Of a stretch of DNA of 64,000 nt, positions 28,759-39,756 are shown piece after piece (the stretch's first letter is position 1; every line of letters begins with the position of its first letter). The stretch lies in the IMG/VR virus record IMGVR_UViG_3300024999_001421. The stretch is one strand, 5' to 3'. The notes under the pieces were generated by a model. It worked only from the letters and a program-made list of their open reading frames with translations. It was not told the origin of the DNA and did no database searches. Source of the stretch: a virus. The translations under genes were made by a program, and so were the position numbers.

Positions 28759-29991
28759 ATGGCTAATGGATTATTTGGTGGTGGTAACGGAACTGAGTTA
28801 ACGCCATACTTAATTGAGGATTTACTCGACCTAGATGCGGTAAGGAATGATCTAACCACCTATTATGAACTTATTAACAATATTGATGCAAGTGATACGG
28901 TTAACTGGAATAGCGGCGCAGGATTCATTCCTATAGGAAATTTTACGACTAAGTTTAGCGGTTCGTTTGACGGCAAGGGCTATAGAGTAACTGGGTTATA
29001 TGTCAAGAGAAGTGTCGATAATAATGGCTTATTTGGTTATGTTTCGTCTAGTGGAGTAGTGAAAAATTTAGGTATGGTTGACGGAAGAATAGAGGCAATT
29101 GGATCAACATTATTTAATCATGGGGCAATAGTTGGTAATAATTACGGAGCTATACAGAAGTGCTTTGCTGTAGGAGGCTATGTTAAAGCGTTAAATAGCG
29201 GTTATAACGCCGGAGGGATAGCTGGTAGCAATAGCGGCACAATAACAGATTGTTTTGCTGGCGTAGCTGTAAATTGTCCCAATAAAGGTGCGGGATTAAT
29301 AGGAGGACACTCAACAGGAACGATATCAAATTGCTACTCCATAGGAGTCGTTACTGGATTAGCGGCTAATTATTGCGGAGGATTGATTGGATATACGTAT
29401 AGCGGTTCAGTAATTAATTGCTTTTGGGATACGGAAACCTCCGGTCAAACTACTTCTGGTGGAGGAACCGGCAAAACTACAGCGCAAATGAAACAGCAGG
29501 CGACTTTTGCGAATTGGGATTTTAATAGCATATGGTCTATAAATGAGGGTGTGTCTTACCCGGCATTACTTGTTTTCGCTACAGGAGTTATGCAAACCAT
29601 AAATGCAGACATGTTACGCCAAACCGTTGTTACCGAGTCAGTATTAATTGACATGTTACGCCAAACCGTTGTTACCGAGTCAGTATTTTCCGATACTCTT
29701 AGGAGGATAATCGAGGGTATTGAACAAACCGCAAACATAGATACGCTACGGCAGATCATTAGGAGTGAATTAGTCTCAGTTAGTACAAAACGCACTATCT
29801 TAGTTAACGAGACTATTCTTGCCGATACTCTAAGGAATGTTTACGACGATACTTATGACATTTCATTAATAGAGATAACGCTTGATTGCACGGTAGTTAA
29901 AGAGTTTGTTTCAATCTTAAGCGTTTCTAAGAGTATTTCTCTTGACGCTAATGTTGCAGATGAAATTTCTTTTAACATGGAAGTGGGTTGA
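28759..29991 (+). CDS. GLUG-motif virion protein
   Basis: GGGNGTELTPYLI, FDGKGY, GLFG, GGIAG repeats, KTTAQMK..WDF. Confidence 0.75.
   Translation: MANGLFGGGNGTELTPYLIEDLLDLDAVRNDLTTYYELINNIDASDTVNWNSGAGFIPIGNFTTKFSGSFDGKGYRVTGLYVKRSVDNNGLFGYVSSSGVVKNLGMVDGRIEAIGSTLFNHGAIVGNNYGAIQKCFAVGGYVKALNSGYNAGGIAGSNSGTITDCFAGVAVNCPNKGAGLIGGHSTGTISNCYSIGVVTGLAANYCGGLIGYTYSGSVINCFWDTETSGQTTSGGGTGKTTAQMKQQATFANWDFNSIWSINEGVSYPALLVFATGVMQTINADMLRQTVVTESVLIDMLRQTVVTESVFSDTLRRIIEGIEQTANIDTLRQIIRSELVSVSTKRTILVNETILADTLRNVYDDTYDISLIEITLDCTVVKEFVSILSVSKSISLDANVADEISFNMEVG
29608..29687 (+). repeat. In-frame tandem duplication (38 bp identical, 42-bp period)
   Basis: GACATGTTACGCCAAACCGTTGTTACCGAGTCAGTATT twice. 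Confidence 0.9.
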
Positions 29992-32614: not shown

Positions 32615-35600
32615 GTGATTTTATTGGCCTACGATTTATACAAAGGGCCGTATAGTAACTTTAATTCATACAGTCAAAGTAGAGATACTTCCAGGGAAGA
32701 TGCCATTAGAAGGTTGCTTAGTTTTTCGAGCAACCAACAAATAACTAACGATCCTGGCATGGCAGATGTAGATTATAGCACTACAATGCCTCCTGTACCG
32801 GAAATGAAAGTACCTATGCCACCTAAAAGAAGTCTATATGAATCTCTGGATAATAAATTTGGCGGGGTGTTGCCGGGAGGTACTATATTTAAGCCAGGAG
32901 ATTACGGAATAAGCGAAAAGTTTGCGGAAAATAACCCAACTATTAGTCGGGGATTAGCGACGATTGCTAGTCCTTTCAAGGCTATCATGGATAATCCATT
33001 TATGAATCGTTCAAGTCAAACTGCTGGGGAAATCGTTACATTAACCGACAGGCCAGAAAAGACTTCTACCGGTAATGATAACAGGGACATGATTGCCGAT
33101 TTAGTTGGTGGACTTGTTGGTTTTGGTGCTAATCCTGAGAGCGCAGGGGCAAAACTATTTGGACTTAGCGAAAAAGCTATAGCTAAAGGATTGCAGTATA
33201 TCCCCAAAGCTGAAAATTTGCCTAAAATATTGCAAACAGGTGCTAAGATTGGCGGGGCGACAGTCCCGTATGAAGCAACCGTAGCGGCACTGAACGACCG
33301 TGAATTTAAACCGGGAGAAGCGGCAGAGGCAGGCTTGTCTAATGCTGCCCTGGCTATGCTATTACATGGTGCAGGGAGTGCCTTAAGCAAACGCAATACA
33401 CCGCCCAAAACTACTGATTTTAAGATGCCTGAGTATAAAGAACCGGATATGTCAGATTTTACGCCGGAGGAACTGGCTAATTTCAGGAGTAAGTCAAGTC
33501 TTGGGGAGATGATAACTCCTGAGACAGTCACCACTAAAGAGGTAGCGGCGGCGCAGAGAACGCTTAGAAATACGCTGAATGTCGAAAAGGCCAATCAGAT
33601 ACTAAACGAATTCCCGGAACTTGAAAGCGAGTTTCCGCACTTTAGACTACAGCAAGGCGATACAGTTATTCTGCCAAATGGAAAAGAAGCAATAGTTAAA
33701 ACAGCGGACAAGATGATTATTCAAGTTGATGTTGATGGAAAGACGGTTAGTATTGGTCGTAAAGTCGTTAAGGTTCCGGAGGTTAAGACAGAAGTTCCGG
33801 AGGTTGTGAGTGAGGCAATGCCGGAAGTGCCGGAGACTACGACTCCTGAGATTAAACAGCAACCCGTTATTAGCGATGTTCCGCGACTAAATAACAGAAG
33901 TGGTGCCGAGACTTTTGCTGACGAAAATATACCTGATGTATCAGTCAAGCAGGAACCAATTGTCGCGCAGGAAATATTGCCGCAATTAACAGGCGAACCT
34001 GTTAAATTAACAGCAGAACAGCAACAGTCGATAGATAAGTTAGTCAAGGATTCTGGATTCAATTCCCTCGAGGATGCTCGAAAGGCAATAACATCATATA
34101 GAAATATGGTTAATGACGGACAGGTATTTTATCGTGGGGAAATGGTTCCAGAGGGAGCAAAAGGTAAGAAAAATAATATTATCCGTCAAAAAAGCATAGA
34201 AGATGTTCTTAATTGGACTCCTGATAATCTAATCAAGAAGCATGAAGCAAACATAGCAAGACAAGAAAATATAAAGGAAAAGGCACAGGAAATTCTTGAT
34301 ACTACTGATCCGCTTAAGGATTACGGTAAACGCGACAATGCTAAAATGGAAATAGAGAATTCTAACTATTGGATTGGTAATTATCAAAAGGAGATTGATA
34401 AACTTAGGAAGCAGATAAAAAATGACGAAGAAATAAGTAAGATAGCAGAAGAAAACAATCTCCTTTACATTACAAGTCAAAAAGAAAATGCCCTGTCTTA
34501 TGCTAAGCAACTCGAAGGTAAGTCTGAAATATTATTTGGAGAGAAGCCAGAAGGCTATAACCCAACCGTGTATGAGTTAAAAGGAAAATTTGACAATACT
34601 TTTGACTTGACTAAGTATGAGAATGGTCTAATAAGTTTAGACGAAGTAGATAACCTATTAAACGACTTAGGAATTAAGCTAGATGATAAGCAGTTTAACG
34701 AATTTATAAATAGACTTGGTATTGATGAAATGGAACAGAATAGCGGTCAAGTATTTGGTCTATTCCGTGGTGAAAACCTTCCTATCATGCTTAATGCGCT
34801 TAAAAAAGGTAAATACGATTCGGTTCATTATGCGGAAGGATTGCAAGATAACTGGATCGTCTTAGATAGAAATAAGGTTGCTATTAAGGATGATTTAGAT
34901 AAGGCAAGTAAACTTGATTCTGTAACGCAAGACAAGATACTTAGATTTAAGTCTGGGCAGGACAAACCAGCACCTCCCGAAGTATTAAAGGACTATCCTG
35001 AGTTATCCGCAGAAGTAGGAAGTAAGTCTACATCGGAAACTAAAGTCATGGCAGAGGATATCGGACTAAAACCGGAAAAAGCGGAAACTTATGACGAAGG
35101 GACGATTGGGGCGGCAAGGTTAACCGTACCGGAAAAGCAATCAACTCTCCCCGGTACTGACGAAAAAGTCAGGTCGTTTAATGTTTCCGTTGCTAATTCT
35201 GAAATAGCTTCTCCGGACGTTAAAATAGCCAATATTATGGAAATGTATCCAGGAGGACTAGGGGCATATAGCCCCATAAAACTACGTGAGGTAGACGTTG
35301 AAGCACAAAATTTAATTTCCCAGAACATAGAAAAGGCTACTCGCTTTGTTCTTGAAGGAGAAGAACCTTCTGCACTTAAAACAGCAACAGGTATTCGTTT
35401 AATTGAAAAATACCAAAACGCCGGTAATTACGAGAGGGCCATAGATGTTTCGCTAGCTATGGCAGAGAGACTAACGAAAGTTGGTCAAGAAATTAGTGCC
35501 GCTAGAATTATGGGGGCACTAAAACCTGATGGTATTTTAGTTTTTGCACAACGACAAATAAATAAACTTAACAGCGGTAAAAAATTCGGTAAGGACATTG

Positions 35601-37591
35601 AATTAACTCCCGAAATGGCTAAAATACTAAAGGAACTTGCCAATAGACTTAAAAATGCAACCGATGAAAATGCCAGATTGGAGGCAGGTCAAGAATTACA
35701 GGGAGCACTGAATTCTCTAAAACCTTCTGGGATACTTAGAAAAATAGATTCGGCGCAAACCATTTCGATGTTATTAAATCCTAAAACTTTAATTAGGAAC
35801 ACAGTTGGCAATGAAATGTTTTATCGCCTAGAAAGGTTAAATAAAATAGTTGCTACACCTATTGACTGGACAGTTAGTAAACTGACCGGAGCAGACCGCC
35901 AGGTAACATTTAGAACGGCTGGGCAAGGTGGTTACTGGCAGGGATTTTTCAAGGGCGCAAAAGCTGGTTGGAAAGGTGTTAACCCAGAAGGTATACAGAC
36001 ACAATACGACTTGGGTCGATCACCGGCATTTAATATTAATCCCGAAAGAGCTAAAAACGCAAATACGACAACTGGGAAAGTTGTTGGTGGCACATTTGAT
36101 TTTGCTGAAAAAACTATGGCTTATCTTGAAAGAACTCTAGGTGCAGCCTTGAAAGGTTTTGATTTTGCGGCATATACCAGGGCAAAAAATAACACTATTG
36201 GAGAACTAGCTACCTTAAAGGCTATAAATACTACTGGAAAAGCTGATAAGACTATAGTACAGGGGTTTATGAAAGATATTGAGGATAATGTCCTGAATAT
36301 TGCTGACCAATATGGAAAATATGTTACATTTCAAGATAACAATGTTATTTCTCGTGGACTACAAGGAGTAAAGGATGCCTTAAACATAAATCAGGATTGG
36401 GGTGTAGGGAGTGTTATTCTTAAATTCCCACGCACACCGGGGGCTTTAATAGCAAGAGGATTAGAATACTCGCCTGCTGGCTTTCTAAAGTCTGCCTACG
36501 AACTAGCAAAAGTAACAGGTATATTTAAGGGCAATCCTAGTCAAAGAGAAACAACACTTGCGTTATCAAGGGCCATAACTGGCACAGCAGGATTAACTGG
36601 ATTAGGTTATTTTCTTGCCGATCAAGGAATTATAACAGGTTCAATAGAAAAAGATAAAGACCTAAGAGATTTACAGCGACAGACAGGGCAAGGACAATAT
36701 CGTATAAATCTAAGCGCATTATCTAGGTGGGTGCAAAGCGGTTTTAATAAAGATACTGCGCAACCTATTGCTGGTGATAAAATAATTAACTATGATTGGG
36801 CGCAGCCAATTGCAATGGCACTAAGCATAGGCGCAAATATCAGCAAAAACCTTAATGATGGACAAGGCAAACTAGATAATATATCCTCAACTATTGCTGG
36901 TAGTCTTGAAGGTGCTTTAAATACAGTTGCCGAGCAACCTGTTTTGCAAGGTCTTACACGGGCAGTACAAGGATATGATATGGGAGAAAATGTAACCAAT
37001 ACAGTTAAAAATATTCCCTCTAGTTTTGCACCAACATTAGCTAATCAAGTAAGACAGTATATAGACAATACAACTCGCTCAACATATGACCCCTCATGGG
37101 TAGAGGAATCGAAAAATAAAGTTAAAGGCAAAATACCGGGAATTGCTGGCAACTTGCCTGTCGCATATGATACTTTCGGAAAACCGAAGGAAATATATCA
37201 AGATGGAGGTAATGATGCTTTCAATGTATTCTTTAATCCAGCATTTACATCGAAATACAAAGTTCCAGAAGAAGCGAAGTTGGCCATAGAAACATTTAGA
37301 AATACCGGAGAAACAAAGCAACTACCTAGAGTTGCATCTAAGTCATTTACTATTAGTGGGCAAAAAATAGAACTAACTGCCAAAGAATATAGCGATATGC
37401 AAAGGATTGTTGGAGAAAGAACACTAAAAGAATTTTCCAGAATACCGCAAAATGCTAGTGATGACAAAAAGATACGCAGGATGATCGATGCTTTAGGTAA
37501 AGCCGGACTAGAGGGCAGAAAATTTGTATTACAACAAAGGGGTATTGGCTTTAGGAATAAGGGCAATGGGATAGTGCTTAGACAACAATAA
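32615..37591 (+). CDS. Large internal virion/ejection (polyvalent-type) protein
   Basis: 1658 aa, last structural gene; central segment with an ART-like motif order. Confidence 0.65.
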   Translation: MILLAYDLYKGPYSNFNSYSQSRDTSREDAIRRLLSFSSNQQITNDPGMADVDYSTTMPPVPEMKVPMPPKRSLYESLDNKFGGVLPGGTIFKPGDYGISEKFAENNPTISRGLATIASPFKAIMDNPFMNRSSQTAGEIVTLTDRPEKTSTGNDNRDMIADLVGGLVGFGANPESAGAKLFGLSEKAIAKGLQYIPKAENLPKILQTGAKIGGATVPYEATVAALNDREFKPGEAAEAGLSNAALAMLLHGAGSALSKRNTPPKTTDFKMPEYKEPDMSDFTPEELANFRSKSSLGEMITPETVTTKEVAAAQRTLRNTLNVEKANQILNEFPELESEFPHFRLQQGDTVILPNGKEAIVKTADKMIIQVDVDGKTVSIGRKVVKVPEVKTEVPEVVSEAMPEVPETTTPEIKQQPVISDVPRLNNRSGAETFADENIPDVSVKQEPIVAQEILPQLTGEPVKLTAEQQQSIDKLVKDSGFNSLEDARKAITSYRNMVNDGQVFYRGEMVPEGAKGKKNNIIRQKSIEDVLNWTPDNLIKKHEANIARQENIKEKAQEILDTTDPLKDYGKRDNAKMEIENSNYWIGNYQKEIDKLRKQIKNDEEISKIAEENNLLYITSQKENALSYAKQLEGKSEILFGEKPEGYNPTVYELKGKFDNTFDLTKYENGLISLDEVDNLLNDLGIKLDDKQFNEFINRLGIDEMEQNSGQVFGLFRGENLPIMLNALKKGKYDSVHYAEGLQDNWIVLDRNKVAIKDDLDKASKLDSVTQDKILRFKSGQDKPAPPEVLKDYPELSAEVGSKSTSETKVMAEDIGLKPEKAETYDEGTIGAARLTVPEKQSTLPGTDEKVRSFNVSVANSEIASPDVKIANIMEMYPGGLGAYSPIKLREVDVEAQNLISQNIEKATRFVLEGEEPSALKTATGIRLIEKYQNAGNYERAIDVSLAMAERLTKVGQEISAARIMGALKPDGILVFAQRQINKLNSGKKFGKDIELTPEMAKILKELANRLKNATDENARLEAGQELQGALNSLKPSGILRKIDSAQTISMLLNPKTLIRNTVGNEMFYRLERLNKIVATPIDWTVSKLTGADRQVTFRTAGQGGYWQGFFKGAKAGWKGVNPEGIQTQYDLGRSPAFNINPERAKNANTTTGKVVGGTFDFAEKTMAYLERTLGAALKGFDFAAYTRAKNNTIGELATLKAINTTGKADKTIVQGFMKDIEDNVLNIADQYGKYVTFQDNNVISRGLQGVKDALNINQDWGVGSVILKFPRTPGALIARGLEYSPAGFLKSAYELAKVTGIFKGNPSQRETTLALSRAITGTAGLTGLGYFLADQGIITGSIEKDKDLRDLQRQTGQGQYRINLSALSRWVQSGFNKDTAQPIAGDKIINYDWAQPIAMALSIGANISKNLNDGQGKLDNISSTIAGSLEGALNTVAEQPVLQGLTRAVQGYDMGENVTNTVKNIPSSFAPTLANQVRQYIDNTTRSTYDPSWVEESKNKVKGKIPGIAGNLPVAYDTFGKPKEIYQDGGNDAFNVFFNPAFTSKYKVPEEAKLAIETFRNTGETKQLPRVASKSFTISGQKIELTAKEYSDMQRIVGERTLKEFSRIPQNASDDKKIRRMIDALGKAGLEGRKFVLQQRGIGFRNKGNGIVLRQQ

Positions 37592-37978: not shown

Positions 37979-38182
37979 TTATTTACCGTCGACATATTCA
38001 AATAGATCTCCCGGTTGACATCTAAGTGTAGCACAAAGACGATCTATAACTTCCAATGAAACATATTCGTTGGTATTTAGTTTTGCCATAGTGCCTCCAG
38101 ATATTTTGGCTTGTTTCATTAAATCTTGTTTTTTTATATTTTTATCAATCAACATTTTTTGGAATAGTTTATAGCTAATCAA
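37979..38182 (-). CDS. Cro/C1-type HTH regulator (HTH_26/YozG-like)
   Basis: ISYKLF...VSLEVIDRLCATLRCQPGDLFEY. Confidence 0.85.
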   Translation of the reverse strand: MISYKLFQKMLIDKNIKKQDLMKQAKISGGTMAKLNTNEYVSLEVIDRLCATLRCQPGDLFEYVDGK

Positions 38183-38264: not shown

Positions 38265-38292
38265 TTGACTTATATTTATGATATGTTATAAT
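38265..38292 (+). promoter_or_regulatory. Sigma-A promoter for the RAMP-HNH operon
   Basis: TTGACT-16 bp-TATAAT with extended TGn. Confidence 0.7.
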
Positions 38293-38351
38293 AATATTTA
38301 AGAAGTTGTAAATAATTACATACCAATAAGGTGTCTTAGGAGGAATACGGC

Positions 38352-38984
38352 ATGGGCAAAAACATTCTAACGGCAACAATCGAAATAAAAGGAATTAGAC
38401 CTCTGTTGTGGCATGTATTTGGTCCTGATTCTTTGCCACTTGAAAAACAAGAGAGGACAGGAGTTGCCGGACACGATCCGGAGGAATGGCGCAAAACATA
38501 TGTAGCAACCAAGAGTGGACAGTTATATTTACCTGGTTCTTATTTCTTCGGAACATACATTGCAGGCGCTAAGTTCATTAAGAAGGGCAAAGGCTCAATT
38601 CAAAGTTTGGTATCAGCAACATTGCAGGTACTTGATGATAAGGTATTGGTTAATCGTAATTTACCGGAAGATATTCACGAAAAACCGCATAAGTATTATA
38701 ATGCTGACGAAGAATTGGTTTATATTGACGTTCGCTCAGTACGTAATCCGTCAACCAAGTCTAGAAACATTCGTTATCGCGTTGCTACTTGCCCCGGATG
38801 GGAGTGTAAATTTTCAATAATGTTCGATAAAACGGTTGTTAGTCGCCAAGAGATGCACTCTGCTATTATTGATGCAGGTAAATTGTCCGGCATTGGCGAT
38901 GGTCGTTCTGTTGGATATGGAAGATTTGATGTATTATCTTTTGAAATACAGGAGGAAGATAATGCCGAGGAAAAGACCTCCTAA
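38352..38984 (+). CDS. Stand-alone Cas7/RAMP-like RNA-binding protein (Vipr-like)
   Basis: First strand IEIKGIRPLLWH, GQLYLPGS (cf. RAMP IPGSS), C-terminal Gly loop AGKLSGIGDGRSVGYGRF. Confidence 0.75.
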   Translation: MGKNILTATIEIKGIRPLLWHVFGPDSLPLEKQERTGVAGHDPEEWRKTYVATKSGQLYLPGSYFFGTYIAGAKFIKKGKGSIQSLVSATLQVLDDKVLVNRNLPEDIHEKPHKYYNADEELVYIDVRSVRNPSTKSRNIRYRVATCPGWECKFSIMFDKTVVSRQEMHSAIIDAGKLSGIGDGRSVGYGRFDVLSFEIQEEDNAEEKTS

Positions 38985-39252
38985 AGAAATATGGCAAAAA
39001 CTAAGAACAATAGTCTGGGAACGAGATAAGGGTAAATGTAAGCACTGTGGCAAACTAGTTGACTTAGATAAATGTCACATAGATCATATTCGTTCTGGTA
39101 AGTTAGGAACAAATAAGTTAAGCAATCTTAGAACTCTATGTCGTTGCTGTCATGTTTTGCGTGAGGATGGGCGACATAGAGGGATGATTAGCAAGGCACT
39201 TAAAGATGGTATTATTCCTCCGAATTGGCGTGAGTTGGTTTGGGGTGATTAA
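38962..39252 (+). CDS. HNH endonuclease (96 aa) overlapping the RAMP-like gene
   Basis: GGAGGA RBS at 38951; RDKGKCKHCG..HIDHI..GTNKLSNLRTLCRCCH. Confidence 0.85.
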   Translation: MPRKRPPKEIWQKLRTIVWERDKGKCKHCGKLVDLDKCHIDHIRSGKLGTNKLSNLRTLCRCCHVLREDGRHRGMISKALKDGIIPPNWRELVWGD

Positions 39253-39271
39253 TATACTGTATAATTAATCA

Positions 39272-39366
39272 GGTCGGGAACGAAGCGGAATGGTGAGTTG
39301 CGGTCCGGAGTGGTACGGAGAGCTGAGGCATGGCACGTTAAGGTGCGCAATGAAATGGTAAGGATT
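39272..39366 (+). ncRNA. Pentamer-period array 1 (19 x G[G]H-NN), candidate guide RNA
   Basis: 19/19 units start with G, 13/19 with GG, third base never G; TATAAT at 39260-39265 just upstream. Confidence 0.8.
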
Positions 39367-39370
39367 CGAA

Positions 39371-39410
39371 ACTACCCTTCGGGGTAGTCCTACAGGTTAG
39401 CCTCCTGTAG
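39371..39410 (+). other. Two hairpins between the arrays (candidate processing/handle)
   Basis: ACTACCC-TTCG-GGGTAGT (UUCG loop) and CTACAGG..CCTGTAG. Confidence 0.7.
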
Positions 39411-39430
39411 TTGACAAGATGGGCTAACAT

Positions 39431-39515
39431 GGAAAGGTCTGGACTGGAACGGAACGTAGGGGCATGGAAAGTTCCGGAGTGGTTTGGTTCGGATTGGCTA
39501 GTTAAGGCAAGGGTA
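39431..39515 (+). ncRNA. Pentamer-period array 2 (17 x G[G]H-NN), candidate guide RNA
   Basis: 17/17 units start with G, 14/17 with GG; third base is G only in the last unit. Confidence 0.8.
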
Positions 39516-39517
39516 AT

Positions 39518-39557
39518 AAGAGAAATAACCACTTCATATGAAGTGGTTATTTCTCTT
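39518..39557. terminator. Perfect 40-bp palindrome, probable bidirectional terminator closing the arrays
   Basis: AAGAGAAATAACCACTTCATATGAAGTGGTTATTTCTCTT. Confidence 0.75.
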
Positions 39558-39756
39558 CCGGCACATATTCAAATAAATCTCCTGGCTGACATTTGAGGAC
39601 TTGACACAACTTGCTGATCTGCTCTATCTCTATTCTCCTAGAAGTACCGTGCCATAACTGACTTACTGTATTTGGCCTAATTCCTGTCATAATGGATAAT
39701 TGTTTCATTGTTATTTTTCTTTTACCCATCATATCTGATACTTTTATTATCATCAT
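39547..39756 (-). CDS. Cro/C1-type HTH regulator (HTH_26/YozG-like)
   Basis: LSIMTGIRPNTVSQL...KLCQVLKCQPGDLFEY. Confidence 0.85.
   Translation of the reverse strand: MMIIKVSDMMGKRKITMKQLSIMTGIRPNTVSQLWHGTSRRIEIEQISKLCQVLKCQPGDLFEYVPEEK

What the first reader, a model, noticed from the sequence alone, without database searches (positions are those of the whole stretch)
38265..39557. Candidate RNA-guided system: stand-alone Cas7/RAMP-like gene + HNH nuclease + two 5-nt-period G[G]H-NN arrays
Seen: one promoter-to-terminator unit holds a 210-aa protein with RAMP hallmarks (LYLPGS; terminal GIGDGRSVGYGRF loop), an overlapping HNH gene, and two non-coding tracts in which all 36 pentamers start with G and 27 with GG while the last two bases vary. 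I see no cas1/2/5/6 and no repeat-spacer array. Known: Cas7-type RAMPs polymerise on guide RNA with a fixed step. Inference: one subunit binds each constant triplet and displays the variable dinucleotide, giving a non-CRISPR programmable complex, plausibly used against rival phages. From memory this resembles the recently reported VIPR (GGY/NN) architecture, which should be verified. Here the triplet is looser (GGA frequent; also GTT, GAA, GCT).
Basis: partly seen in the sequence, partly recalled or inferred. Interest (0 to 1): 0.97.

Follow-up and report, generated by a model that had tools for sequence, protein, structure and literature searches.

The report
Phage VIPR system with HNH nuclease
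This groundwater phage carries a VIPR system, a CRISPR-like RNA-guided system first described in 2026, made of a Cas7-like protein, an HNH nuclease and two pentamer-repeat guide RNAs whose code matches genes of rival phages, so it is a clear new example of a known kind.

Summary
Window 38265-39557 is one operon: promoter, a 210-aa Vipr (RAMP) gene, an overlapping 96-aa HNH gene, two 19-unit pentamer arrays and a terminator.

- **Protein:** a profile of the family matches the solved SUSP1 Vipr protein (E 6e-9). The model has a Csm3/Cas7 fold.
- **Family:** in 68 related loci the HNH gene is adjacent in 63. In the 42 viral loci, 38 have G-phased arrays. The pooled repeat is GGY-NN.
- **Linker:** the spacer between the arrays is a type II hammerhead with a U3-A8 core.
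- **Targets:** under the published "read two, skip one" rule, array 1 matches 29 of 30 guide positions in the giant virion-protein gene of two related rival phages. The phage's own allele matches 11 of 38. Array 2 matches 28 of 30 in a large polyvalent protein gene of another phage.
- **Handle:** the last four units of each array never match and are conserved.
- **HNH docking:** a complex prediction supports HNH docking on Vipr (0.72; best control 0.22).

VIPR, HNH accessory genes and hammerhead-split arrays are all published (bioRxiv 10.64898/2026.04.26.720920). This scan has also met VIPR loci on other DNA. This is a new member of a known kind. No expression data exist.

The parts
38265..38292 (+). 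Sigma-70-type promoter of the operon
   Evidence: TTGACT, 16-nt spacer, TATAAT with an upstream TG; 11 of 12 consensus matches. Consensus match only; no transcript data.
38352..38984 (+). vipr: 210-aa RAMP protein (RRM core, thumb hairpin about residues 123-146, glycine-rich loop 180-192)
   Evidence: The family profile hits PDB 36pp 'SUSP1 Vipr protein' at E 6.3e-9, residues 9-192 against 6-190. AF2 model: pLDDT 80.8. The top Foldseek hits listed are all type III/VII CRISPR effector complexes, matching Csm3/Cas7-size chains, at E about 1e-8. At least 1293 homologues.
38962..39252 (+). vap: 96-aa HNH nuclease accessory gene, overlapping vipr by 23 nt
   Evidence: PF01844, E 1.8e-6. A homologue lies next to vipr in 63 of 68 related loci. 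Invariant C26, D41, H42, N51, N55, C60, H64, plus a conserved C-terminal tail G74, W89, R90, W94. Predicted to dock on Vipr.
39272..39346 (+). vrRNA1, guide part: pentamer units 1-15
   Evidence: 29 of 30 variable positions match L069:11397 (+) and L071:7433 (-) under the two-read, one-skipped rule, with the skipped base at the codon wobble position.
39347..39366 (+). vrRNA1, four terminal non-targeting units (3' handle)
   Evidence: Only 2 of 8 positions match the target. Arrays across the family end in a conserved GGYAA-GGCAA-GGRTT-like motif.
39364..39429 (+). Type II hammerhead-like ribozyme between the two guide RNAs; predicted cleavage between 39389 and 39390
   Evidence: Stem III is 39372-39377 with 39382-39387. 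Stem I is 39390-39396 with 39404-39410. Loop I (39397-39403) pairs with 39421-39427 as a pseudoknot. The core is UUGACAA at 39411-39417. A covariance model built without the window scores it 50.1 bits, E 2e-11. 13 of 17 pairs covary. The orthologous elements in L001 and L020 score 36.3 and 35.8 bits on Rfam Hammerhead_II; the window itself gets no Rfam hit.
39421..39495 (+). vrRNA2, guide part: units 1-15; the first two units double as the hammerhead pseudoknot partner
   Evidence: 28 of 30 variable positions match L084 starting at 1584 (+), inside a large polyvalent protein gene.
39496..39515 (+). vrRNA2, four terminal non-targeting units (3' handle)
   Evidence: 3 of 8 positions match the target. 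The conserved GGCAA-GGGTA ending is shared with L020.
39518..39557 (.). Terminator hairpin, shared with the convergent HTH gene (39547-39756, minus strand)
   Evidence: 18-bp stem, -27.4 kcal/mol, z -7.8. The same hairpin follows the HTH gene in phage L071, which lacks VIPR, so it belongs to the phage backbone.
35183..35238 (+). The phage's own allele of the vrRNA1 target site, inside its 1658-aa virion protein gene (32615-37591): not targeted
   Evidence: 11 of 38 positions match the guide, which is chance level. The protein is 44-54% identical in blocks to the targeted L071 protein.

Best explanation
This is a phage-borne VIPR (Viral Interference Programmable Repeat) system of the nuclease-associated kind.

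**Proposed mechanism**
1. One transcript starts at the promoter at 38265 and encodes Vipr, the HNH accessory protein and two guide RNAs.
2. A type II hammerhead between the arrays cuts the transcript after position 39389. vrRNA1 keeps a 3' hairpin. vrRNA2 starts with a hairpin and pseudoknot and ends at the terminator.
3. One Vipr protomer binds each pentamer, hides the G-G-H bases and displays the two variable bases. This follows the solved SUSP1 complex.
4. The first 15 units read double-stranded DNA as 'two bases read, one skipped'. The last four conserved units act as a handle.
5. vrRNA1 recognises the giant virion-protein gene of closely related rival phages, at a spot where this phage's own allele differs. 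vrRNA2 recognises a large polyvalent protein gene of another phage group.
6. The small HNH nuclease docks on Vipr through its conserved C-terminal tail and cuts or nicks the bound rival DNA. The phage thereby excludes competitors during co-infection or superinfection.

**Shown here:** family membership, anatomy, conservation, and the guide-target matches.

**Inferred:** transcription, ribozyme cleavage, filament formation, DNA cutting and the ecological role.
For: **Vipr identity**
- The family profile matches PDB 36pp 'SUSP1 Vipr protein' at E 6.3e-9.
- In that alignment, SUSP1 RNA-contact residues H17, R138, D177 and R179 align with H21, R143, D183 and R185 of this protein. H21 is nearly invariant and R143 and R185 are invariant in the family.
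- The fold is Csm3/Cas7-like.

**Family**
- 38 of 42 viral loci have G-phased arrays just downstream.
- HNH is adjacent in 63 of 68 loci.
- The pooled repeat over 1214 units is G 98%, G 76%, Y 79%, then two near-uniform positions.
- The closest relative (L020, Vipr 96% identical) has completely different variable bases in the same scaffold.

**Hammerhead:**

**Targets**
- vrRNA1 matches 29 of 30 guide positions in two contigs that differ from each other only at skipped bases.
- The reversed-pattern control gave one hit, with 8 of its 20 unforced positions matching.
- The sibling phage L020's vrRNA1 matches 27 of 30 positions in the same gene, starting exactly 45 nt downstream. Nothing forced this match; shuffled guides reached at most 22 of 30.
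- vrRNA2 matches 28 of 30 in L084.
- Both guides have the sense of the target mRNA, so they can pair only with template-strand DNA.
- There is no self-target in the window.

**HNH docking:** ipSAE 0.72 against a best control of 0.22. That mark was reached by 58 of 80 solved complexes and 2 of 110 mismatched pairs. The three runs agree in 100% of contacts, and the partner pLDDT is at least 86.

**Published mechanism:**
Against: - No transcript, RNP or cleavage data exist for this locus.
- The window's hammerhead core is UUGACAA, not CUGAUGA. Rfam Hammerhead_II gives no hit even at E 10, so self-cleavage may be weak or lost.
- The third repeat base is A in 16 of 38 units, whereas SUSP1 Vipr sterically excludes purines there. 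The stacking residue W178 of SUSP1 is glycine here.
- The vrRNA2 match is imperfect. It lies in a conserved peptide motif that also brought in unrelated chance hits at 19-24 of 30.
- Nuclease activity of any HNH accessory protein is only predicted in the literature.
- The complex prediction used my own alignments and shows support, not binding.
Confidence: 0.85

Rival explanations
1. The system only silences transcription, as shown for the type II SUSP1 system. On this reading the HNH gene is an unrelated selfish homing endonuclease of the kind common in phage genomes, not a working partner of Vipr.
For: Only repression has been shown experimentally for VIPR. Free-standing HNH genes are frequent in phages (established knowledge).
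Against: - The HNH gene is adjacent to vipr in 63 of 68 loci spanning many phyla, at 54-91% identity among the aligned viral loci, often overlapping vipr.
- Its invariant C-terminal tail is predicted to contact an invariant Vipr loop.
- The published classification lists HNH among the vipr-accessory proteins.
Confidence: 0.07
2. The locus is a decaying or partly inactive copy. The hammerhead is dead, so vrRNA2 is not released, and the loosened repeats are no longer bound properly.
For: - The core has two substitutions and gets no Rfam hit.
- There are many non-GG units: 11 of 38 across the two 19-unit arrays.
- A occupies the pyrimidine position in 16 of 38 units.
Against: - The two core changes are the compensatory U3-A8 pair, which is known in natural hammerheads (PMC4209133).
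- All stems and the 7-bp pseudoknot are intact, and the family model scores 50.1 bits.
- Both ORFs are intact with all invariant residues present.
- Both guides still match natural targets at 93-97% of guide positions.
Confidence: 0.06
3. It is a remnant of a CRISPR-Cas type III or type I system: a solo Cas7 that has lost its array and its partner genes.
For: Fold similarity to Csm3/Cas7. A weak Cas6_C Pfam hit at E 0.033.
Against: - No CRISPR repeats were found in 64 kb, and none of the ORFs I annotated is a cas gene.
- The only solved protein matched by sequence is SUSP1 Vipr.
- The two-gene module with pentamer arrays is conserved as such in dozens of loci.
Confidence: 0.01

Closest known systems
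VIPR systems with nuclease accessory genes and hammerhead-interspersed arrays (types III and V of bioRxiv 10.64898/2026.04.26.720920)
   Same: - A Vipr RAMP plus one accessory gene, with HNH named among the accessory proteins.
- GGY-NN-type pentamer guide RNAs.
- Hammerhead ribozymes between the guide RNAs.
- Guides that match viral sequences at 80% or more of the variable positions, with no self-targets.
   Different: - The paper describes the nuclease-bearing types as enriched in host defence islands. This copy sits in a phage genome with terminase, portal, head and tail genes, and one of its guides is aimed at a sibling phage.
- I could not assign type III or V, because the figures and tables are not held.
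- The third repeat base is looser here, and the hammerhead core carries U3-A8.
Type II VIPR of Escherichia phage SUSP1 (PDB 36pp; bioRxiv 10.64898/2026.04.26.720927)
   Same: - Homologous Vipr (profile E 6.3e-9), with the G1 and G2 contact residues conserved.
- Phage-encoded.
- The 1-nt skip code, with skipped bases at codon wobble positions.
- Targets in the structural genes of a competing element.
   Different: - SUSP1 has a DNA-binding accessory protein (vap1), 9-16 repeats and a 3' pseudoknot tail, and acts by repression.
- This locus has an HNH accessory protein, 19 repeats of which about 15 guide, a conserved terminal-repeat handle and hammerhead processing.
- SUSP1 W178 is glycine here.
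Type II hammerhead ribozymes (Rfam RF02276; Perreault et al. 2011, PMC3088659)
   Same: - Open stem II of 2-3 bp.
- Hairpin-closed stems I and III.
- A pseudoknot between loop I and the 3' tail.
- Frequent occurrence in phage intergenic regions.
- Relatives in L046 score 45-55 bits.
   Different: The window's copy has the U3-A8 covariant core and falls below Rfam detection.
Class 1 CRISPR-Cas Cas7/Csm3 backbone filaments
   Same: RAMP fold, one protomer per fixed step of guide RNA, and thumb-mediated periodic base flipping.
   Different: There is no CRISPR array and no cas1, 2, 5, 6 or 10. The step is 5 nt, with only 2 of the 5 bases read.

Membership tests
VIPR system | A Vipr protein homologous to the described Vipr family | tested here: met
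   The profile of 31 family members hits PDB 36pp_D 'SUSP1 Vipr protein' at E 6.3e-9, positions 9-192 against 6-190. It is the only PDB sequence matched at E up to 10.
VIPR system | A minimal RAMP fold: single RRM core, thumb and glycine-rich loop | tested here: met
   AF2 pLDDT 80.8. The top Foldseek hits listed are all type III/VII CRISPR effector complexes, matching Csm3/Cas7-size chains, at E about 1e-8 and probability 1.00. The G-loop at 180-192 is invariant at G180, R185, G188, G190, R191 and F192.
VIPR system | Residues that hold the GG of each repeat (SUSP1 H17, R138, D177, W178, R179) | tested here: inconclusive
   In the HMMER alignment they align with H21, R143, D183, G184 and R185. 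Four of the five are kept; the stacking tryptophan is glycine. This may relate to the looser repeat here.
VIPR system | Tandem GGY-NN (or related) pentamer arrays beside vipr, constant GG and hypervariable NN | tested here: met
   Two 19-unit arrays in the window. Arrays in 38 of 42 viral loci. Pooled logo G98, G76, Y79, N, N. The NN positions differ completely from the 96%-identical relative L020.
VIPR system | A minimal locus with one accessory (vap) gene, no CRISPR array and no other cas genes | tested here: met
   HNH is adjacent in 63 of 68 loci. No repeat-spacer array was found in the window, and the ORFs I annotated include no cas gene.
VIPR system | Natural targets that obey the 1-nt skip rule at 80% or more NN match, with no self-target | tested here: met
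   vrRNA1: 31 of 38 positions, 29 of 30 in units 1-15. vrRNA2: 31 of 38, 28 of 30 in units 1-15. Best match inside the window itself is 25 of 38, and the homologous own site is 11 of 38.
VIPR system | vrRNAs are expressed and co-purify with Vipr; the RNP binds double-stranded DNA | not testable with these tools
   Only groundwater DNA runs hold the sequence; no RNA run is listed.
Hammerhead ribozyme, type II (RF02276) | Reaches the Rfam gathering score with the conserved CUGANGA and GAAA core | tested here: not met
   The window gets no hit at E up to 10; its core is UUGACAA. Relatives: L046 has seven hits at 45-55 bits against a gathering score of 37; L001 scores 36.3 and L020 35.8.
Hammerhead ribozyme, type II (RF02276) | A three-helix junction with covarying stems and a loop I pseudoknot | tested here: met
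   A family model built without the window scores it 50.1 bits, E 2e-11. On an alignment fitted to that model, 97% of cells pair, 13 of 17 pairs covary and 0 of 500 shuffles reach this. The 7-bp pseudoknot is 39397-39403 with 39421-39427, read directly from the sequence.
Hammerhead ribozyme, type II (RF02276) | Self-cleavage | not testable with these tools
   The U3-A8 core variant occurs in natural hammerheads (PMC4209133), but its activity here is unknown.
CRISPR-Cas class 1 | A CRISPR repeat-spacer array and adaptation or other effector cas genes | tested here: not met
   No array was found, and none of the ORFs I annotated is a cas gene.

The most novel reading that the evidence does not exclude
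The HNH-type VIPR may act as an RNA-guided homing or marker-exclusion device rather than a plain defence. Its first guide cuts the rival allele of the gene that lies about 3 kb upstream of the cassette. The cut would fall just where homology between the two phages breaks off. Repair from the VIPR-bearing genome would then copy this phage's allele, and the cassette, into the rival.

A linked reading concerns how guides arise. The guides of two sibling phages cover exactly adjacent 45-nt (15-codon) segments of the same rival gene. That hints at a ruler-like, templated way of making new guides without Cas1 or Cas2.
Probability: 0.1. Interest if true: 0.85.

Novelty: new member of a known kind. 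Interest (0 to 1): 0.42.

Why it matters
The locus adds a well-resolved natural example to a system known only since April 2026.

- It is a nuclease-type VIPR inside a real phage genome. Both of its guides can be assigned to natural targets, and self versus non-self discrimination is visible at the allele level.
- Four guide-target pairs confirm the published gapped code independently in a distant branch of the family.
- About 15 units guide, and the last four form a conserved handle.
- There is a concrete predicted Vipr-HNH interface to test.

None of this changes the picture given by the 2026 preprints. The HNH step, cutting versus silencing, is the open question this locus could help answer.

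Tried and rejected
- **Exact IMG/VR scans that found nothing:** 10-unit patterns of vrRNA2 units 3-12 and vrRNA1 units 1-10.
- **vrRNA2 units 9-17:** gave only AT-rich chance hits, 21-27 of 38. This pattern included handle units.
- **Metagenome scans:** units 4-13 of vrRNA2 found nothing. Units 5-13 found no better target than L084.
- **Alternative codes inside the window:** 0, 2 or 3 skipped bases, or three read bases per unit, gave only background or the arrays themselves.
- **Cross-scan of 75 family guides against the first 42 loci:** nothing above shuffled controls.
- **Homology of the two target proteins:** I had guessed that the window's 1658-aa protein and the L084 polyvalent protein were related. 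BLASTP does not support this.
- **Flanking HTH genes:** the two Cro/C1-type genes are not part of VIPR. Relatives occur in only 6 of 68 loci.
- **Cultured phages:** no match to the region.
- **Whole genome:** none is held for this window.
- **Sequencing runs:** no RNA holder is listed; only groundwater DNA runs hold the sequence.
- **Paper supplements:** not held, so the VIPR type number could not be fixed.
- **Third repeat base against the skipped target base:** hand comparison gave 4 of 14 agreements, which is chance.
Full report
**Observation.**
- A near-consensus promoter lies at 38265-38292.
- It precedes a 210-aa ORF (38352-38984) and an overlapping 96-aa HNH ORF (38962-39252; PF01844, E 1.8e-6).
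- Two non-coding tracts with strict 5-nt phasing follow. Array 1 (39272-39366) has 19 of 19 pentamers starting with G. Array 2 (39421-39515) has 18 of 19.
- Nothing else in the 64 kb, on either strand, reaches 14 of 19.
- The arrays fold no better than shuffled sequence (z 0.30 and -1.31). The 18-bp hairpin at 39518-39557 is a strong terminator-like structure (z -7.8).
- No CRISPR-like repeats were found.

**The protein is a Vipr.**
- Pfam gives only a weak Cas6_C hit, and the only PHROG match is a family of unknown function.
- The protein has at least 1293 homologues of 45-96% identity.
- A profile of 31 of them matches one solved protein only: PDB 36pp 'SUSP1 Vipr protein', E 6.3e-9, over almost the whole length.
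- The AlphaFold model (pLDDT 80.8) finds type III/VII CRISPR effector complexes as its best structural neighbours, matching Csm3/Cas7-size chains (E about 1e-8).
- In the HMMER alignment, SUSP1 residues that hold the two guanines (H17, R138, D177, R179) align with H21, R143, D183 and R185. H21 is nearly invariant and R143 and R185 are invariant in the family.
- The stacking tryptophan W178 of SUSP1 is glycine here.

**The family keeps the same three parts.**
- Of 42 IMG/VR loci encoding a homologue, 38 carry G-phased pentamer arrays on the same strand just downstream.
- Over all 68 viral and genomic loci, an HNH homologue is adjacent in 63. The exceptions are four loci where the contig or match is cut short (L041, L053, L057, L068) and L039.
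- The pooled repeat over 75 distinct arrays and 1214 units is G 98%, G 76%, pyrimidine 79%, then two near-uniform positions. This is the published GGY-NN.
- The window's clade is looser at the third base.
- The closest relative (L020; Vipr 96% and HNH 91% identical) has the same scaffold but entirely different variable dinucleotides.
- Hosts span Bacillota, Chloroflexota, Cyanobacteria, Acidobacteriota, Armatimonadota and others.

**The linker is a hammerhead.**
- The 54 nt between the arrays have the order GAAA, stem III, GUC, stem I, seven-base core. This is a type II hammerhead.
- A descriptor search found 13 such elements. All lie on the coding strand inside VIPR arrays, and none lies elsewhere in about 0.5 Mb.
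- Rfam Hammerhead_II scores seven copies in Marinithermofilum abyssi (L046) at 45-55 bits against a gathering score of 37. The orthologous elements of L001 and L020 score 36.3 and 35.8 bits.
- The window's copy gets no Rfam hit, because its core reads UUGACAA rather than CUGAUGA.
- A covariance model built from nine relatives, without the window, scores the window's copy at 50.1 bits, E 2e-11.
- On an alignment fitted to that model, 13 of 17 pairs covary and 97% of cells pair.
- The two core changes form the U3-A8 pair that replaces C3-G8 in some natural hammerheads (PMC4209133).
- Loop I pairs over 7 bp with 39421-39427. It is the pseudoknot typical of type II hammerheads with very short stem II (PMC3088659).
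- Predicted cleavage lies between 39389 and 39390.

**Targets.** I decoded the arrays with the published rule: read the last two bases of each unit and skip one target base.
- There is no self-match in the window.
- An exact scan of IMG/VR with units 7-15 of vrRNA1 gave three hits.
- Two of them, L069 and L071, extend to 29 of 30 positions over units 1-15. They match only 2 of 8 positions in units 16-19. The third hit is chance (21 of 38).
- The probability of 11 or more matches among the 12 unforced positions of units 1-6 is about 2e-6.
- A reversed-pattern control gave one hit, with 8 of its 20 unforced positions matching.
- The site is in frame in a 1936+/2029-aa gene, with every skipped base at a codon wobble position.
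- The two target alleles differ at four bases within the site, all of them skipped bases.
- That gene is the homologue of the window's own 1658-aa gene, 32615-37591 (44-54% identity in blocks).
- The window's allele diverges exactly at this site and matches the guide at 11 of 38 positions.
- L071 comes from the same sample as L020. It is a mosaic relative of this phage (71-88% nucleotide identity in blocks).
- L071 has other genes in the slot where the VIPR cassette sits here.
- Without any forcing, the first guide of sibling phage L020 matches the same gene at 27 of 30 positions, starting exactly 45 nt downstream. Shuffled guides reach at most 22 of 30.
- vrRNA2 matches L084 at 28 of 30 positions over units 1-15. 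The site lies in a gene for a large polyvalent protein (Pfam LPD38, E 4.8e-43; PBECR3).
- Homologous genes score 25-27 of 30, and unrelated chance hits 19-24 of 30.
- A further family pair, L014 on L024, gives 26 of 28.
- In all four pairs the last three to five units (about four) do not match. Arrays across the family end in a conserved GGYAA-GGCAA-GGRTT-like motif. So about 15 units guide and the rest form a handle.
- Both window guides have the sense of the target mRNA, so they can pair only with template-strand DNA.

**HNH.**
- The catalytic and zinc residues (C26, D41, H42, N51, N55, C60, H64) are invariant. So is a C-terminal tail (G74, W89, R90, W94) that nuclease chemistry does not explain.
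- A complex prediction places that tail (residues 73-90) on the invariant Vipr loop 76-83 and helix 164-177.
- The score is 0.72 against a best control of 0.22. That mark was reached by 58 of 80 solved complexes and 2 of 110 mismatched pairs. The three runs agree in 100% of contacts, and the partner pLDDT is at least 86.
- This supports binding but does not show it.

**Context.**
- The window is a tailed-phage genome, with terminase, portal, major head protein and an anti-repressor. It comes from groundwater metagenomes.
- The cassette lies between the structural module and the regulatory genes.
- The flanking Cro/C1-type genes belong to the phage backbone, not to VIPR.

**Comparison and verdict.**
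- VIPR, its seven types, HNH and other nuclease accessory genes, hammerhead-interspersed arrays, relaxed repeat consensus and phage-directed guides are all described in bioRxiv 10.64898/2026.04.26.720920. The structural mechanism is in 10.64898/2026.04.26.720927.
- This scan has already met VIPR loci on other DNA, including an HNH-bearing phage copy.
- The locus meets every defining feature I could test. Expression and biochemistry could not be tested.
- It is a new member of a known kind.
- Small additions to the published picture:
  - a phage setting for a nuclease-type system, a type the paper links mainly to host defence islands;
  - allele-level self versus non-self discrimination;
  - the 15-plus-4 unit anatomy;
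  - the U3-A8 hammerhead;
  - a testable Vipr-HNH interface.
- The type number (III or V) could not be fixed, because the figures and tables are not held.

Noticed in passing
L020:3911-3985 against L071:7345-7388 (minus strand): The first guide of the sibling phage L020 targets the same rival gene as the window's vrRNA1. Its site starts exactly 45 nt (15 codons) downstream, so the two guides tile adjacent segments without gap or overlap. This could reflect a shared ancestral array or a ruler-like way of making guides.
   Followed up: partly
window 37979-38182 and 39547-39756 (both minus strand): Two paralogous Cro/C1-type HTH_26 genes with similar C-termini flank the VIPR cassette. The rival phage L071 has only the right-hand one (70% identical) and a different 1.35-kb insert in the slot. 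The cassette therefore occupies a variable cargo slot.
   Followed up: partly
L014:3616-3705 against L024 at 1135 (minus strand); L024:2511-2580 against L014 at 4942 (minus strand): Two VIPR-bearing contigs appear to target each other. L014 on L024 gives 26 of 28 guide positions. The reverse match (19 of 20 in the first ten units, 20 of 28 overall) is short and less certain.
   Followed up: partly
L046:4866-5723: Marinithermofilum abyssi carries an array in which seven type II hammerheads (Rfam, 45-55 bits) alternate with guide RNAs. It is a textbook case of the ribozyme-interspersed architecture, in a cultured strain.
   Followed up: partly
L025 and L040, 5913-6608: A second, very divergent vipr (27% identical) with its own pentamer array lies about 2.3 kb downstream of the first VIPR locus. 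That makes two VIPR systems in tandem.
   Followed up: no
L061:2095-2355: Metabacillus fastidiosus has two longer, weaker hammerhead-like elements (36.9 and 19.1 bits with the family model) next to its vipr.
   Followed up: no
window 29608-29687: A perfect 42-nt tandem duplication (1.9 copies) lies inside the structural gene region.
   Followed up: no
window 38352-38984, residues 27-39: The stretch with invariant P29, L30, E31, E34, G37, V38, A39 and G40 is the least confident part of the model (pLDDT below 50) although it is among the most conserved. It is probably ordered only in the filament or on nucleic acid.
   Followed up: no
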